In this document: one piece after another, positions 37,548-46,713 of the stretch
Layout: each line of letters starts with the position of its first letter
Position numbering within the stretch: position 1 is the stretch's first letter
NCBI GenBank assembly: GCA_032718475.1
Contig: JAUCBJ010006482.1
Span: forward strand, 1 to 46,820
From: Nemertoderma westbladi
Lineage: Eukaryota; Animalia; Xenacoelomorpha
Length of the DNA stretch: 46,820 nt
Direction: 5' to 3'
Translations under genes and position numbers: made by a program
The notes under the pieces: model-generated
What the model was told of the DNA's origin: nothing
The model's database searches: none
Seen by the model: the letters and a program-made list of their open reading frames with translations, nothing else

Positions 37548-37657
37548 ACTTACTGCAGTTCAATTTATTTTGTACCACTAAATCGCTGTACGTTTTATTA
37601 GAATTAAGCAACAAAAAAGTACAAATTTAAGAATAAAGTTATCATTTCAGCAATTAT

Positions 37658-38122: not shown

Positions 38123-38128
38123 TTTATT
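38123..38128 (-). promoter_or_regulatory. Candidate polyadenylation signal AATAAA for the K2P-like gene
   Basis: TTTATT on the plus strand, 12 nt past the stop codon. The region is very AT-rich, so this may be chance. Confidence 0.3.
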
Positions 38129-38140
38129 TATATGAGATTG

Positions 38141-40275
38141 TTACGTTTTCTGTGTCTCCCCCGGATATCCCCCATTCTCCATTGGTTTCCCATTGGTGAG
38201 TGCGGATTGGTTGAGTTCGGGTGACGATAGACTCAAATGTATTCCGCTCTCCTGATTGGTCAATCCCCCACTAGAGTGAGTTACCCGAATAATCGGCCGT
38301 ACTATTGGTTTACGACGTTGCGGGATGTTATTCGTCGGTGTTGGTGGGTTGACCTGCGCTATTTGATTCATTCTGCTCGGGACGCTACTGGATAGCGGAT
38401 GAGTGAAACGAACACGTGATATAACAGGTTGTTTGTGTGCGACATCTTGTGGTTTCGTATGTATTGATGCAGCTATTGAATTAGTGTCTTTTCCGCTTAG
38501 TGTCTGCGGCGACATAGAATCGTTTAACCAATGAGATATCCTGGCATTCATACCGTTGTTAGGCCAACCATTCGAAGGATTCTGGCCGTAGTTGCTTGGT
38601 AACGTACGATTAGCGTTTTCCATTTTTGAGTTAATATTCGGTCGTGGTCTAACAGTCCCAAAATTGCCCCTCACCTTTTCGTTTCTTCTTAAAGAGTCAA
38701 ATTTATTGCTTAGAGTTTTCCTAGAGTTGGCCCGGTTGTCCAGGAAACTTTTGAATTTAGGGAACGAGTAGTATTTGGATGATCGCATCGTGTTTCCCGG
38801 GGTACCGGCATGGCCATTCCGTGTGCCCTTCGGAGGGTCATCCTGCAAACTCTCTTTCGGTGGCGGCAAATGGTTTAATCCTTTCGGTTCATCGATATCT
38901 ATAGCGAGCGACTGAATTAATCGGTCTCCGAGATCTTTGATCGAGGCAGTTACAGACTTTTTCCTGATACCCGGCGTCACGCCTAACAAAGTGTTTGTAC
39001 TCTCTCGCTGAATAGGAAAGTGAGACGACACCTTGTGCGGTAGAGTGTGAAATCGTTTGTCTTGGTTCTCCACCTCCACTGACGGTCTGTACGATCTGTC
39101 CAGTGTGGCGACTTCTCGAGAATTTTCCGTGAGACGGCGTTGAATGCTCTTCAGTAAGTTACCGGTATCGTTGCTTGATGAATGTTCTCTAGACCGGCTG
39201 TCTCTGCTATGCGTGTCTCCGGTTGTTAGTTTGAGGAATGAGTCATTAAATGGCAGTGTTTGAGGTAACTTCCGGCGAGCGAGTGGCGACTGTTCAAGAG
39301 GGGGTTGTTTCCTCTTGGGAAAAGTTGCGTTCTCCTGTGTACGGGATGTCCTAGTAGTGGGAGATACGTGATTGTGTTGATCGTCAGTTTCAATATATGC
39401 GGTGTCCTTCTTATGTGGGGTAGTTTGTTGGGGTAGATTATAGTTAGGTTTTATTATTGGAATTTTGAACAGTGGGGGGCCACTATTTTGTTCCTGTGGA
39501 GAGATTGGCGATTGTGCCAATGGGGATGTGGCCTTGCTATGAACTTTAATGGTCGGTTTTGTCTGTTTTTCTCTGGAAATTATTTTTTGTTCTCCAGGTG
39601 TAACATGGTGTCGTCTTCCAGGATATTTTTCGTTCTCGTTGTAATAATTGGTTAATGGATCAGTGAGACTTTGTGTTGGTTTAGGGGGAGATTTCAATAC
39701 TTCTGGTACAAATGAAAACTTTTTCTCATCATGAAAGGGTTCGCGGAATTGGTTACCGTAGCGACGTGTTACGTCACCATCAGCTTCGTCGAGAGTTTCG
39801 TCCAGCATCTTATCATCAACATCATCCGTAACGATATTGTCCATTAACGGTCGCTGAAGCTCCTTATGTCTCTCTTTCCCCACCGCCACTAAAGGCGTAA
39901 TTTCCTGAATACCGCCATGGGCATTCTTCACCGAAAGTAAAGTTCCTCTGGAAAATGTAAGGATTGAGTTTTTCTCGGATCCTAGAATGATACTCTTCTG
40001 TAGTTTCTTAGATTCCCTATCCGTAAGTCTCACTTTATCCACGTTTAGCAGGATGTAAACGAAAAGGCTGAGACATAGACTTAAGTAGAGAATTAGTAGT
40101 AGATAGTAGAACACGAGTCCACCAGCTGGTGCCCCACGCGCAGCCGGCGTCTGGGTAATCACTGTTGTTGTGGTTACCATGACGATGAAGTAGTAAGCGT
40201 CTCCGAATGTCCAGCCCTCTATACCGGCCACTATTCCACTTGGTATAATACACAGAAGTAAAAAGTAAGCAGCAA
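38141..40275 (-). CDS. K2P-like gene coding exon 3 (M3, P2, M4, long C-terminal tail)
   Basis: Acceptor TTTTGTATCTTTGTTGCAG|TT GCT GCT TAC is in phase with exon 2. The frame stays open for 2135 nt to TAA at 38143-38141. Confidence 0.87.
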
Positions 40276-42389
40276 CTGCAACAAAGATACAAAACAATTA
40301 ATTGCTTGAATATTTTTTTAATTTTCAATACAGTTTTTTGGTGAAATATTACAGAGTCGTTTACTTGTTCTACAATGTCCTATGTACATTGTTACAATTG
40401 GACGGATCCAAGATGGATGTCCTTCTTTCGCACACGTGTTTGTTTGTGTGTTTGTTTGTACACACAACTTATTGCACTTAATGTTGATGGAATTGGATGA
40501 AACTTTGATGATAGGTTCATTATCGGACCTAGTTGTGTATGCAAGGTTTTGGTTGCGAGGGACCTTGCAACAGTGAAATCTATTCTAGAATGAACGATCA
40601 TAATTGTAGAATTCACTCAATCAAATTTCTGTCGACACCCCATAGGGAGCACCTATTGGACATGCTTTATGCAAAATTTAGTTTAGAATTGTTGTGGTAG
40701 AAGATAACATTTCCTACAAACAGTTTTTATACATATATACAATGAATTATACGGACGCTACTTTGCCCAATCTGTACCAATCTGGTTAAATTCTCACAAT
40801 ACTTATACACAATTTAGATATGTTACAAACATACAGGTATGGTTACAAACAACTCGTGATAGCGGTAGGTACAATATTGAACCACAGTATACAAAAAATA
40901 AGACCACAGTGTATACTTTAAGGCAAGTAAAAGTAAAAGTTCAAGATAATGTCTATTTTCGCTCTATACTTACAAGCAATAACTCCTGACAGAGTATATT
41001 GAACCCTTTTCGAAGTGTCGTTTGGTATTATTCTGTTTCTAATTTTCTTTACTAAATCCATTGCGGCTTTATGGATTGGAGTCAGCGTCACCAGATACCA
41101 AATAAACAACGGAACTCCGAACATCAGGTAGAAAGGAGAGAATTGCTTTGTCGCCGCGCTATTTGGTGTCATTCCATTGTAGCCTGTGATATAATAATAA
41201 TTTATCAATCAAATTAAAAATATTTTGTTAAAATAAATAATATTATCAAATTCGATTCGATGTGTGTGTGATTCGATTGGGTTTTAATATGAAAAAAGTA
41301 GTGTTGTAATAATAAAGCCACGAGGAGCCAAACACCGTTAAGTACTTTACAACTAACAAGTACTGTAGCCTAACTTACAGTATGTGTAGTTTTATTCTAC
41401 AGTCAACATTACGAAATGGCTACACTGTAGAATATTGGTGCGATTTCTCAATTTTTATAACAAGAATTGATAGAGACTAGTTTTCACGTACAGTAATATT
41501 ATCTAATTTCACCCCACCAGTCAGAATGTGTTTCAGATTGGTTTCATTGGGAACGTCTCTAACATGTCATAAGTCGTTTGTTACGACCCATGAGTCGAAA
41601 GTGATTCCATCTTTTGACATACGACACATGAGTTCTTTCTGGCAAGAGGCCTGTGATTGGTTACTTAGGGTAGCAGCAAGCCAGAAAATATTGTACAGAG
41701 AAAAAATATGAGACGCATCTTGGGTTTTTAAGATTTTTAATCTTATATCTTAAGGCTCATGACTTACCAGTGGAGCACGGGGGATATACTTTTGACATAC
41801 GGACTCCGACCAAATCTGAAAACGACTTATGACATGCGACACATAGCCACATATGACATGTGTGGTCAGTGGAGCACGGGCCTTAAAGACATTGTCTAGT
41901 CTAGTGCGAAACTGAAACCATATTTCAACAAATTAGACCTTGTCGTTGGTAAAATAAAACAAAAAATACATGTAAGGAATCATATTATTCAGAAGATACT
42001 GAATGAGTAATGCAGTTGGACTAACCAATGGTTGTAGCCGTGGAGAACGCAAACAGCAAACTGGAACTGAAATCCCAAGTAGATATTTGTAAAGAAGAAT
42101 TTGGTAGCAACGAGACTCCGTTCATGAAACCGTTTTCTACCTCAACCAAGTACTCCGTGAGAATCTCACGAGTGAGGCATTCGTGTTGGACGAGAAACCG
42201 TTTGGTTGTCTTTACAAGAAGCGACTTTACGAGTTCGTTGTTGTTGTAACTTCTTTCACAGAAGTATATGATAGTGGCCCCAATGAATAAGTAGACCCAC
42301 ACGACAGCTGTAAATATTAGAACTTTAATCCAATATTTCATTGTAAGATTTTTCAGATGGTAGTCAAAAAGTTTGTTCTTTTTTGTCAT
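38141..42389 (-). CDS. Two-pore-domain (K2P/KCNK, TREK/TALK-like) channel-like protein, join(42389-42026, 41183-40974, 40275-38141), ~902 aa, atypical selectivity filters
   Basis: M1 (MKYWIKVLIFTAVVWVYLFIGATIIYFCE), cap with Cys (FLVQHECLT), pore helix 1 (WDFSSSLLFAFSTATTIG|YNG), M2 (FYLMFGVPLF), M3 (YFLLLCIIPSGIV), EGWTFGDAYYF pore helix 2, M4 (FYYLLLILYLSLCLSLF). Both introns are GT-AG and phase 1. Exon lengths 364+210+2135 = 2709 nt = 903 codons including the stop. Alternative start ATG at 42341. Confidence 0.88.
40395..40565 (+). mobile_element. HINE/DINE-1-like interspersed repeat fragment in K2P intron 2
   Basis: (GTTT/GTGT)n microsatellite at ~40433-40460 followed by GATGGAATTGGATGAAACTTTG, a layout recalled from Helentron-associated non-autonomous elements. 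Boundaries approximate. Confidence 0.4.
40974..41183 (-). CDS. K2P-like gene coding exon 2 (rest of P1, M2, M2-M3 loop)
   Basis: Acceptor TTATTATATCACAG|GC TAC AAT GGA; reads (G)YNGMTPNSAATKQFSPFYLMFGVPLFIWYL...SGVIA; donor T|GTAAGT at 40973. Confidence 0.87.
41311..41418 (+). repeat. Dispersed repeat, copy 1 (partner at 46626-46713)
   Basis: Shared blocks AATAAAGCCACGAGGA, AAGTACTTT, TGTAGTTTTATTC and AACATTACGAAATG in the same order. Confidence 0.8.
41510..41886. mobile_element. Degenerate MITE-like element in K2P intron 1 (PIF/Harbinger-like right end)
   Basis: 17-bp perfect inverted pair CATGTCATAAGTCGTTT (41563-41579) / AAACGACTTATGACATG (41820-41836). 14-bp direct repeat CAGTGGAGCACGGG (41768-41781, 41867-41880). 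Ends ...GGGCCTTAA. The left terminus is not clearly recognisable. Confidence 0.5.
42026..42389 (-). CDS. K2P-like gene coding exon 1 (M1, cap domain, pore helix 1 to TTIG)
   Basis: ORF 42021..42389 ends ACC ATT G|GTTAGT (donor at 42025). An intron inside the first Gly codon of the P1 filter is the conserved K2P intron position. Confidence 0.88.
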
Positions 42390-43496: not shown

Positions 43497-43676
43497 AAGT
43501 GTTTTATAGCGCTTTTTTCTGTCTTATAACCTGTACAGATACTAATTCTTTTATTGTTTTGGTTAGATTCAGACCGTGTTTTTAGTGAAAACCTGGGATT
43601 CTTCACATGGGGGTTAAACTGCACAAAAGTGAAATATAACGATATGAAGTCTGGTATACTTCACTTGGGCCTTTAA
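43497..43676. mobile_element. Left-truncated copy of the MITE at 44474-44750
   Basis: Colinear with 44571-44750 (AAGTGTTTTATAGCGCTT...TTGGTTAGATTCAG...TTCTTCACATGGGGG...AAGTCTGGTAT.CTTCAC.TGGGC) and ends in CTTTAA. Confidence 0.8.
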
Positions 43677-44473
43677 TTCGTGTGTAGGCATGGACTTACA
43701 TTTATGTAGGATTGTAATTGAGACAAGCAATCGTTAAACGAAATCGGTCGTCCCTTTGATGTTTAGTACCGACGCATTTATTCCAACACCCCTTCGGGTT
43801 AGAAACCTAGTGTATGTCGTGATGAAAATTGGAAATCAACTCCAAACTATACCGTTAAACATGTATGCGATTGTTGAAGAGGGTAATGACAAAATATCGA
43901 TCCTTTCATATTTTGTGTCAACTGCGAAGCAACGGTTCAATTACCATGGCAGCTGGAGGCGTTTGTCCTGGCATGCGTTACGTGCGCGCCGCACTATAAT
44001 ACTCTAATTACACAGCACCCATTGTAGCCTTTAGTATAGAGACTAAAGCCTCAATATCTAACCACTTAAAAGGATAATGCCAGAAAATGAGATTCCCTTA
44101 CTCGCCATTACTAATTGTAAGCCCTCTGTTAATATCGTATTACACTTGCGTTCAGTAACTATATAGGGCCGCGCTCTGCATTTTATGGCCATTATTCTGG
44201 GAAATAGCGCCCCGCTGACACTGTAAACAATTCGTACAGGCAGACTGTGAGCCAATCCGTCTACATTATTCGCCTTAATCTTAATGCATTATTCAGTTTA
44301 TTTAACTACTTTTATCACGTATAGGTGTTACTGTTTTTATTTTTTATGATAAATACGTTATACTTTATAGACTAAGTATGAAAAATGCAATGGAAGAAAA
44401 TGTAAAATAATTTAATGTAGGCCTACAGTAGTTACCAAATGTGATACATTGTATTTTCAGTGAACGTATTGTC

Positions 44474-44750
44474 GCCCATGTGAAGAATACCAGGATTTCA
44501 CTTTTCGGTCGACTTTTTATTGGAATTTTATATATGAAGATCTTTTATTTGTTTTAAATTTATCTTTATTAAGTGTTTTATAGCGCTTATTTCTGTCTTA
44601 TAACCTGTACATATACTAATTCGTTTATTGTTTTGGTTAGATTCAGCCCTTCTGTAACCTGTGTTTTTGTTGAAAACCTGGTATTCTTCACATGGGGGTA
44701 ACTGCAAAGTGAAATATAAGGTCAGCAAGTCTGGTATTCTTCACATGGGC
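44474..44750. mobile_element. MITE (~277 bp) with perfect 20-bp terminal inverted repeats
   Basis: GCCCATGTGAAGAATACCAG (44474-44493) is the reverse complement of CTGGTATTCTTCACATGGGC (44731-44750). Extra internal TIR copy at 44677-44696 and subterminal inverted ATTTCACTTT/AAAGTGAAAT. No coding capacity, and no clear TSD. Confidence 0.75.
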
Positions 44751-44991
44751 CCGTAATGTAGTGTAGCAAAAGTATAGTGGAACCACATTTTGTGTTCCGA
44801 AGGACACTTTTGCTACGGACACTGTAAAATACTTATAAATGTAGAAGTAAGATGAATAATGAGTAATCTTAATTACAGTATTTATATCTATTTAAATACC
44901 GGTAATATAAAGTAATGAATTTCATACGATTATCTAAGCAATTTAAGTGTAGGCCTATATTTTCCACATAATTAACAATAAATTGTTCGCT

Positions 44992-45681
44992 ATGGAAGAA
45001 ATCAGGAAAAACTACTATATAGCACAACTAGAAACAATTCGAGATGTTAAACAGAAAACTGAGGCTGTTCGGAAACTGAAAGTTTCTTTAGCGGAAAAGG
45101 TCCAGGAATACCAGCCAATGAGCGATCAGCTAGCCGAATACACAAGAGAACTCAATTTACTGCAACAGGAGAAACTCTCTCATGTGGAACAGTTGAGACA
45201 AATTCATGCTGATATGAACATACTGGACGGGATAATCAAAGAATCACAAGAGGAAATCATTCAGAATAAAGATAAGTCTAGACAGTATTACAACCAACTG
45301 ATAGAAATCCGTGAAGGTTTGGATAGTGATCGGGCTAAGTTAGGCCTAAATCCGTCCAAACTCCTTACGGAAACGGATATGGAAGAATTGGGTGTTCGAG
45401 GTTCCGCTAGTCACGATGTAACCAACGCGTATGAACGCATGTCGCCGGTTGTTGGGCCAGCTTCCACCGAGGGGCAGTCTGGTGTCCTGGGGCTGCCACT
45501 GATCGAGTTGGGTCTCAGCGGCATGGCCTCGTTCATCAGACAGAACCCGCCGCCAATGAAGCCGTGTATGTCCTGCCATCAGCAGATCCACAGGAACGCG
45601 CCCATCTGTCCGCTGTGCAAAGCGAAAAGTCGGTCGCAGAACCCGAAGAAGCCAAGAAAGGGAAGCTCTGGTGGCCCCTAA
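44992..45681 (+). CDS. ZC4H2: Zinc finger C4H2 domain-containing protein, 229 aa, single coding exon
   Basis: N-terminal coiled coil with LLQQEKLSHVEQLRQIHADMN and C-terminal RQNPPPMKPCMSCHQQIHRNAPICPLCKAKSRSQNPKKP closely match recalled ZC4H2 (KIAA1166) motifs. First ATG at 44992 (the ORF track starts at TTG 44983); TAA ends at 45681. Confidence 0.95.
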   Translation: MEEIRKNYYIAQLETIRDVKQKTEAVRKLKVSLAEKVQEYQPMSDQLAEYTRELNLLQQEKLSHVEQLRQIHADMNILDGIIKESQEEIIQNKDKSRQYYNQLIEIREGLDSDRAKLGLNPSKLLTETDMEELGVRGSASHDVTNAYERMSPVVGPASTEGQSGVLGLPLIELGLSGMASFIRQNPPPMKPCMSCHQQIHRNAPICPLCKAKSRSQNPKKPRKGSSGGP

Positions 45682-46477: not shown

Positions 46478-46625
46478 CCTAGGACAAAGTAGAGAAGGCT
46501 TTATAATGTTATATCTTCCTTCCTCTGTAATAACTACTGTATTTACATACTTGTGTGTAAAGTAGCACTTTACAGTGTGATGATAGTGGCTTTGTTACAC
46601 GAACGAACGTTAGTGAGTGAGTGAA

Positions 46626-46713
46626 AATAAAGCCACGAGGATCAGAACACTGTAAAGTACTTTGCAACAAATATGTATGTAGTTTTATTCCAAAATTTTA
46701 ACATTACGAAATG
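46626..46713 (+). repeat. Dispersed repeat, copy 2 (partner at 41311-41418)
   Basis: AATAAAGCCACGAGGATCAGAACACTGTAAAGTACTTT...TGTAGTTTTATTC...AACATTACGAAATG aligns by eye to copy 1 with one ~20-bp indel. Confidence 0.8.

What the first reader, a model, noticed from the sequence alone, without database searches (positions are those of the whole stretch)
38141..42389. Intact K2P-fold channel gene with both K+ selectivity filters non-canonical
Seen: the full M1-cap-P1-M2-M3-P2-M4 topology, clean splice sites and a ~902-codon open frame, but P1 is TTIGYNG and P2 is TTTTVITQ. Known: K+ selectivity depends on T-x-G-[Y/F/L]-G in each pore loop, and even atypical K2Ps (TWIK-1 GLG, KCNK7 GLE) keep most of it. 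Inference: this is not an ordinary K+ leak channel. It may be a non-selective or other-ion channel, a silent or dominant-negative heterodimer partner (the cap Cys for disulfide dimerisation is kept), or a membrane scaffold or mechanosensor repurposed from a TREK-like ancestor.
Basis: partly seen in the sequence, partly recalled or inferred. Interest (0 to 1): 0.8.

Follow-up and report, generated by a model that had tools for sequence, protein, structure and literature searches.

The report
Potassium leak channel with broken filters
An animal gene keeps the whole build of a two-pore potassium leak channel but has lost three of the four glycines that make the pore potassium-selective, so it likely makes a silent subunit that would damp normal leak channels by pairing with them.

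Summary
Observation confirmed: three exons, GT-AG introns, 902 open codons. Filter 1 reads TIGYN, filter 2 TTVIT(Q). No other exon, splice site or frame in the window restores a filter, and both pore loops keep canonical length. The scaffold is kept (13 of 14 invariant non-filter positions) while 4 of 7 invariant filter positions are lost (p 0.025; 0.10 and 0.37 at looser cut-offs). At least 12 base changes in 7 filter codons with no stop in 2.7 kb argue against simple decay. No orthologue, RNA run or genome was available, so selection and expression are inferred. Most likely a non-conducting subunit that suppresses canonical partners (0.45); non-selective channel 0.25. A TREK-like mechanosensor origin is not supported: placement among TWIK, TREK and TALK is unresolved. 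There is precedent. In a published 66-channel alignment, C. elegans TWK-16 has both filters altered, with the same Gly-to-Asn in filter 1. But 0 of 66 lose both filter-2 glycines. This scan also noted a mussel K2P lacking filter 2 (unreviewed). New, more extreme variant of a known kind.

The parts
42026..42389 (-). Exon 1: N-terminus, M1, cap helices, pore helix 1 and T-I-G of filter 1. The start could be Met1 (42389) or Met17 (42341).
   Evidence: (TREK-1 E 1e-10, TWIK-1 E 1e-9)
42177..42179 (-). Cap cysteine Cys71, the inter-subunit disulfide position
   Evidence: column 97% Cys in canonical rows; coordinate
42093..42101 (-). Conserved N-glycosylation sequon at Asn97 in the cap-to-pore-helix loop
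41184..42025 (-). Intron 1, 842 nt, phase 1, inside the first glycine codon of filter 1
   Evidence: 40 of 52 incomplete database hits leave the K2P frame at this same point (counted by eye), which suggests an ancestral intron position
40974..41183 (-). Exon 2: rest of filter 1 (Y-N-G), M2 with its G-V-P hinge, start of M3
41176..41178 (-). Asn124 in place of the last glycine of filter 1
   Evidence: Gly in 36 of 36 canonical rows; at least 2 base changes
40276..40973 (-). Intron 2, 698 nt, phase 1, within M3
38141..40275 (-). Exon 3: M3, pore helix 2, filter 2, M4, long tail and stop codon
40151..40168 (-). Filter 2, residues 228-233: T-T-V-I-T-Q in place of T-I-G-F-G-D
38144..40012 (-). About 620-residue cytoplasmic tail rich in Ser, Pro, Thr, Lys and Arg; predicted disordered from composition; no Pfam family found
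   Evidence: chance of this open frame about 3e-15
38123..38128 (-). Candidate polyadenylation signal just after the stop (the region is AT-rich, so weak)

Best explanation
This is an intact K2P-family gene whose two potassium filters are broken, and its product is likely a non-conducting subunit that would pair through its cap with canonical K2P subunits and lower their leak current. Shown: open frame, exon structure, loss of three of four filter glycines and of the filter-2 aspartate, retention of scaffold, cap cysteine and loop lengths. Inferred: selection still keeps the protein; it folds and dimerises; a pore with Val and Thr at both filter-2 glycine positions cannot line up the backbone carbonyls that pass K+; and a mixed dimer, which takes two of its four filter strands from this subunit, is dead or held inside the cell. 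The effect would be to depolarise or tune cells that express it. The 620-residue tail likely supplies trafficking or scaffold contacts.
For: At columns at least 95% invariant in 36 canonical rows, 4 of 7 filter positions are lost against 1 of 14 elsewhere (Fisher p 0.025). The neighbouring ZC4H2 gene loses 13 of 68 such columns; 4 of 7 at that rate has p 0.03. Seven filter codons need at least 12 base changes, while a neutrally drifting frame stayed open in 1 of 500 runs at 0.05 changes per site and 0 of 500 at 0.1. Loop lengths are canonical: 24 residues as in 36 of 36 rows, and 35 residues, the mode. In TASK-1, changes at the same last glycines (G97R, G203D, G203R) give no current (10.1101/2025.04.23.650279, passage). 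Filter-mutant TASK-3 and TASK-5 G95E subunits suppress partners, and silent TASK-5 lowers surface expression of TASK channels (PMC11364637, passages). Neither filter carries an acidic residue, unlike Na+, Ca2+ and CNG pores (recalled). The M4 glycine (87% conserved) is Cys and TM2.6 is Ile.
Against: No orthologue, transcript or genome, so neither selection on the new filter nor a partner gene is shown. The enrichment of losses in the filter fades at looser cut-offs: p 0.10 at 90% and 0.37 at 80%. The canonical rows were chosen for carrying the motif, which inflates filter invariance. The TASK mutations cited put in charged or bulky residues, whereas Asn often tolerates glycine-like backbone angles (recalled). 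Filter changes can give Na+ permeability instead of silence: UNC-58, and TREK1 TIGFG to TTGFG, which shares the Thr found here at 229 (PMC11513965). Both inner filter threonines (120, 228) are kept.
Confidence: 0.45

Rival explanations
1. The homodimer is a channel that has lost K+ selectivity. Filter 1 keeps a near-normal strand, filter 2 is widened, and Na+ or mixed cations pass, giving a depolarising leak like UNC-58.
For: Both inner threonines, T-I-G-Y of filter 1, both pore helices, the M2 G-V-P hinge and both loop lengths are kept. UNC-58 and the TREK1 TTGFG variant conduct Na+ (PMC11513965). TWK-17, whose filter 1 reads STGYD, has a loss-of-function locomotion phenotype (PMC9049526, passages).
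Against: UNC-58 and the TREK1 variant keep all four filter glycines; here three are gone. Loss of the last glycines silences TASK-1. No acidic filter residue, and a hydrophobic TM2.6.
Confidence: 0.25
2. A redundant duplicate under relaxed selection, on its way to becoming a pseudogene, in a fast-evolving lineage.
For: Long branch of 2.6-2.7 changes per site. At the 80% cut-off, 14 of 37 conserved non-filter positions are lost. The neighbour ZC4H2 is also fast: 36% identity to 16 animals, against 57% among them. No orthologue found.
Against: No stop or frameshift in 902 codons despite at least 12 filter base changes. 13 of 14 invariant scaffold residues are kept. Splice sites are intact and the 620-codon tail is open.
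Confidence: 0.13
3. A pore-dead membrane anchor that works alone: the homodimer presents its long disordered tail as a scaffold or sensor, without acting on other K2Ps.
For: About two thirds of the protein is a tail held open by selection or recent function, and the scaffold is kept while the filter is lost.
Against: The tail has no recognisable domain, and only common short motifs were seen. Long tails also occur on canonical hits such as P0056 and P0011. Nothing links it to TREK-type mechanosensing.
Confidence: 0.12
4. The filters are an artefact of assembly or of the gene model, and the real mRNA encodes normal filters.
For: No reads or transcripts were seen. A donor-like site lies at 40162, just before the filter-2 glycine position, and the window ends in a 37.5-kb satellite beyond which an exon could hide. 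An off-frame S-D-Y lies near filter 2.
Against: M4 follows in frame at the canonical distance. No filter motif exists in any frame of the window. The off-frame motif is at chance level: 1085 of 20000 shuffles, 4 of 73 and 13 of 175 control windows. Two separate exons would both have to be wrong.
Confidence: 0.05

Closest known systems
C. elegans TWK-16 (NP accession not read; alignment in PMC6377628 Supplementary Fig. 2)
   Same: K2P with both filters altered: filter 1 TLGYN has the same last Gly-to-Asn change, and the Asp after filter 2 is Gln, as here.
   Different: TWK-16 filter 2 (AIDFG) keeps the aromatic residue and the last glycine; this protein keeps neither. TWK-16 was not among my homologue hits or in my trees, so convergence is assumed, not tested. 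I found no functional data on it in the three papers searched for the name.
KCNK7 / TWIK-3 (K2P7.1)
   Same: Natural K2P with a broken filter 2 (TIGLE) and no current in heterologous systems (PMC8616229; PMC13582297).
   Different: KCNK7 changes one filter glycine and keeps filter 1 (TTGYG); here three glycines and the aspartate are gone, and there is a 620-residue tail.
TASK-5 (KCNK15) and its G95E filter variant
   Same: Silent as a homodimer, acts through heterodimers; the filter variant is dominant-negative (PMC11364637). This is the working model proposed here.
   Different: TASK subfamily; wild-type TASK-5 has normal filters and its heterodimers conduct. G95E is a polymorphism, not a rebuilt pore.
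C. elegans UNC-58, TWK-17, TWK-29
   Same: Invertebrate K2Ps with unusual filters (TCGYG; STGYD; AIEYG). UNC-58 conducts Na+ (PMC11513965); twk-17 loss has a phenotype (PMC9049526).
   Different: Each changes at most one filter glycine.
TREK-1 (PDB 4TWK, 6CQ6), TWIK-1 (7SK0, 3UKM), TWIK-2 (9E94) and invertebrate 'KCNK16/KCNK4-like' channels
   Same: Best sequence matches for exon 1; best structural match for the M3-P2-M4 model is TWIK-2, Z 9.5, rmsd 2.5 over 82 residues, tied within 1 Z with other pore-loop channels; same cap type and intron-1 position.
   Different: At most 28% identical over the core; all have canonical filters.

Membership tests
K2P (KCNK) family, by descent and fold | Four membrane helices and two pore loops in tandem (M1-P1-M2-M3-P2-M4) | tested here: met
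   Profile match E 4e-47 over positions 3-254 of 260; four hydrophobic segments; fragment models show both pore helices
K2P (KCNK) family, by descent and fold | Extracellular two-helix cap after M1 with a disulfide cysteine | tested here: met
   Cys71 and the cap hydrophobic pattern align with TREK-1 and TWIK-1; helices 3-52 and 58-73 in the exon-1 model
K2P (KCNK) family, by descent and fold | Assembly as a dimer | not testable with these tools
   The full spliced protein could not be folded; needs biochemistry
K+-selective K2P channel | T-x-G-[Y/F]-G in filter 1 | tested here: not met
   T-I-G-Y-N; Gly in 36 of 36 canonical rows
K+-selective K2P channel | T-x-G-[F/L/Y]-G-D in filter 2 | tested here: not met
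   T-T-V-I-T-Q; no alternative frame or exon in the window
K+-selective K2P channel | K+-selective background current | not testable with these tools
   Needs electrophysiology
TREK/TRAAK subfamily (mechanosensitive) | Falls in the TREK clade | tested here: inconclusive
   Outside the starred TREK clade, but AU p 0.23 does not reject it
TREK/TRAAK subfamily (mechanosensitive) | Glycine at TM2.6 | tested here: not met
   Ile149, counted from Gly144 by the numbering of PMC6377628
TWIK subfamily | Falls in the TWIK clade | tested here: inconclusive
   AU p 0.16
TALK subfamily | Falls in the TALK clade | tested here: inconclusive
   AU p 0.12
Silent modulatory K2P subunits (KCNK7, TASK-5) | No homomeric current; changes partner currents in heterodimers | not testable with these tools
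   Inferred only
Pseudogene | Stops, frameshifts or broken splice sites | tested here: not met
   902 open codons, GT-AG introns

The most novel reading that the evidence does not exclude
A K2P scaffold that evolution has rebuilt into a working pore with no glycine in filter 2: a dimeric channel passing Na+, mixed cations or another small solute through an asymmetric filter, converging with nematode TWK-16 on Gly-to-Asn in filter 1 and Asp-to-Gln after filter 2.
Probability: 0.2. Interest if true: 0.75.

Novelty: new variant of a known kind. Interest (0 to 1): 0.47.

Why it matters
K2P channels set resting potential, and the role of naturally silent or filter-altered members (KCNK7, several nematode TWKs) is still open. 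PMC11513965 says outright that the effect of filter variation cannot be predicted and needs recording. This gene is a more extreme natural case than any of 66 human, worm and fly K2Ps: it loses three of four filter glycines on an intact scaffold. One oocyte experiment would show whether such a subunit is a built-in brake on leak channels or a new kind of pore. It shares two changes with TWK-16, so the pair can be tested side by side. Its weight is limited by resting on one assembly with no orthologue or transcript.

Tried and rejected
No whole genome is held, so paralogues and partners could not be sought. The run search listed no RNA holder; this is no evidence on expression. Word-seeded protein searches with exon 3 (0 of 1669 candidates) and exon 1 (0 of 355) found nothing. 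Exact look-ups found 0 of 3 sequences. Two metagenome scans found no relative (0 of 593 and 0 of 217 stretches). ESM Atlas gave generic Ion_trans_2 clusters only. The two top hits of the representative search, P0001 and P0003, are repeat-derived junk. The complex prediction for two copies of the exon-1 peptide gave no answer (score 0.02, alignment not used) and is not counted either way. Foldseek of the exon-1 model gave no match at E 0.001; TWIK-1 ranked first at E 0.07. The fragment models were built on alignments of canonical channels, so they cannot show the filter's real shape; confidence drops to 66-72 over the filter-2 loop. The full-length spliced protein was not folded or searched. 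A compensated frameshift at filter 2 was rejected as chance-level. An alternative acceptor at 41006 gives G-F-N, not a filter. The quick trees kept the filter columns, despite a comment in the script; repeat the tests with those columns dropped and reach the same answer. Clades were named after seeing the first tree, and no TASK, THIK or TRESK sequence was available as outgroup. A search with the neighbouring ZC4H2 gene did not place the lineage (best full-length identities 34-42%). Ten paper searches showed no report of a K2P lacking both filter-2 glycines.
Full report
Observation. The gene lies on the minus strand in three exons, 42389-42026, 41183-40974 and 40275-38141, giving 902 codons and a stop. 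Both introns are phase 1 GT-AG. The other five frames hold 36-59 stops, and the chance of such an open frame is about 1e-21. Filter 1 reads T-I-G-Y-N and filter 2 T-T-V-I-T followed by Gln. The splicing itself is predicted, since no RNA was seen.

Identity. Each exon hits Pfam Ion_trans_2 below the curated cut-off. Exon 1 matches TREK-1 (E 1e-10) and TWIK-1 (E 1e-9) among solved structures, and no TASK-1/3 or THIK chain appears among the 25 matches. A search of 1.84 billion representatives with exon 1 gave 89 hits: two repeat artefacts and K2P proteins at 27-40% identity, none an orthologue. Twenty hits were looked up; the named ones are mostly KCNK16-, KCNK4-, KCNK10-, KCNK1- and KCNK6-like channels of hemichordates, echinoderms, molluscs, a flatworm, arachnids, a rotifer and vertebrates. 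The spliced protein aligns over nearly the whole of a profile of the canonical hits (E 4e-47). Fragment models show M1, the cap helices, both pore helices, M3 and M4 (mean pLDDT 78 and 80). The M3-P2-M4 model matches TWIK-2 best (Z 9.5, rmsd 2.5, 82 residues), within 1 Z of other pore-loop channels. Of 52 hits not used as full-length rows, 40 leave the K2P frame right after T-x-G of filter 1 (counted by eye). That is where intron 1 sits, so the intron position is probably ancestral and the gene is not a retrocopy.

Are the filters real? No T-x-G-[YFL]-G motif occurs in any frame of the window, and none of 223 possible acceptors restores filter 1. Loop lengths are unchanged: Thr120 to Gly144 is 24 residues, as in 36 of 36 rows, and Trp213 to Tyr248 is 35, the commonest value (16 of 30). 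An off-frame S-D-Y near filter 2 suggested a compensated frameshift, but 5% of shuffles match it. An exon beyond the window cannot be excluded, but M4 follows in frame.

Is the gene maintained? The comparison used 36 canonical rows. I selected 47, then dropped 9 near-duplicate cluster members, one chimeric isoform and one duplicate. At columns at least 95% invariant, the protein loses 4 of 7 filter positions (Gly124, Gly230, Gly232, Asp233) and 1 of 14 others (p 0.025). At 90% it is 4 of 7 against 4 of 19 (p 0.10), and at 80% 5 of 10 against 14 of 37 (p 0.37). The rows were chosen for carrying the motif, which favours filter invariance; among the excluded hits only P0075 showed an altered filter. 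The neighbouring ZC4H2 gene is also fast-evolving (36% identity to 16 animals, 57% among them) and loses 13 of 68 invariant columns, mostly conservatively. Four of 7 at that rate has p 0.03. Seven filter codons need at least 12 base changes in 21 bases, yet a simulated drifting frame stayed open in 1 of 500 runs at 0.05 changes per site and never at 0.1. So the filter changed while the frame was protected. This is inference from one sequence; dN/dS could not be computed.

Ancestry. The protein is a long branch (2.64; 2.71 with filter columns dropped) outside the well-supported TWIK, TREK and TALK clades, pairing weakly with an unnamed canonical channel (P0046, 92/87). AU tests reject none of the three placements (p 0.23, 0.16, 0.12). 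TM2.6 is Ile, not the Gly of TREK and TRAAK (PMC6377628, section read). A TREK-derived mechanosensor has no specific support.

Mechanism. A K+ filter needs glycines so that backbone carbonyls face the pore (established knowledge), and each K2P subunit gives two of the four strands (PMC11513965). Here Val and Thr replace both filter-2 glycines, Gln replaces the following Asp, and Asn replaces the last glycine of filter 1. In TASK-1, G97R, G203D and G203R at those last glycines give no current (10.1101/2025.04.23.650279, passage). Filter-mutant TASK-3 and TASK-5 subunits suppress partners, and silent TASK-5 reduces TASK surface expression (PMC11364637, passages). The cap, its cysteine (PMC8436263, passages) and the membrane scaffold are kept. 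I therefore commit to a non-conducting subunit that pairs with canonical K2Ps and lowers their leak (0.45). The main rival is a non-selective cation leak (0.25): both inner threonines and most of filter 1 are kept, and UNC-58 and a TREK1 TTGFG variant pass Na+ (PMC11513965, Discussion part 1 of 2), though those keep all four glycines. Relaxed decay (0.13), a stand-alone scaffold (0.12) and artefact (0.05) follow. No partner gene could be sought.

Comparison with what is known. Supplementary Fig. 2 of PMC6377628 aligns 66 human, worm and fly K2Ps (parts 3-5 of 6 read; counted by eye). The last filter-1 glycine is lost in 2 of 66 (TWK-16 Asn, TWK-17 Asp), the first filter-2 glycine in 2 (TWK-16, TWK-29), the last filter-2 glycine in 1 (KCNK7), and both filter-2 glycines in 0. 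TWK-16 has both filters altered and shares Gly-to-Asn in filter 1 and Asp-to-Gln after filter 2 with this protein, so the kind is already in print. twk-17 loss has a locomotion phenotype (PMC9049526, passages). KCNK7 is silent in heterologous systems (PMC8616229; PMC13582297; passages). The filter alignment in the SI Appendix of PMC11513965 was not among the supplements held and may discuss such channels. Passages of PMC4882002, PMC7617898, PMC2712977 and 10.1101/2025.02.15.638427 and a term search of 10.64898/2026.08.21.746268 added nothing specific. An unreviewed note of this scan describes a mussel K2P lacking its second filter under apparent selection.

Verdict. A real, intact K2P-family gene that fails the sequence tests for a K+-selective channel. 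It is a new and more extreme variant of the known filter-altered K2P subunits. Interest 0.47: a clean, testable natural mutant, limited by a single assembly with no orthologue, transcript or partner.

Noticed in passing
window 1-37547: A 41-45 bp tandem satellite of roughly 890 units fills the first 37.5 kb. On the + strand each unit carries a branch-point-like and AG acceptor-like motif (694 exact copies of a 12-mer). Earlier notes on this genome describe giant splice-junction satellites; whether this is one was not established.
   Followed up: partly
window 37554-37585 (minus): A possible 32-nt exon, with an AG before it and a consensus donor at 37553 right at the satellite edge; one of three frames is open. 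It could belong to a host gene or to the K2P 3' UTR. The same bases also read as an acceptor on the + strand.
   Followed up: partly
window 44992-45681 (+): Intronless ZC4H2 zinc-finger gene (PF10146, E 4e-47), divergently oriented from the K2P gene. It is only about 36% identical to other animals' ZC4H2 but has a well-kept zinc finger.
   Followed up: partly
window 43497-43677 and 44571-44757; inverted piece 44475-44502: An about 180-bp segment is duplicated at 83-95% identity about 1.08 kb apart, with a 28-bp inverted copy between; it may be a small mobile element.
   Followed up: no
window 41306-41362 and 46621-46677: A 57-bp interspersed repeat (81% identical), one copy inside K2P intron 1.
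   Followed up: no
protein P0004 (Ptychodera flava, XP_070579152.1): Two complete K2P units in one 640-residue model, either a tandem fusion or two merged neighbouring genes.
   Followed up: no
protein P0075: A TREK-like hit whose filter 2 reads T-I-G-F-C; real variant or error not checked.
   Followed up: no
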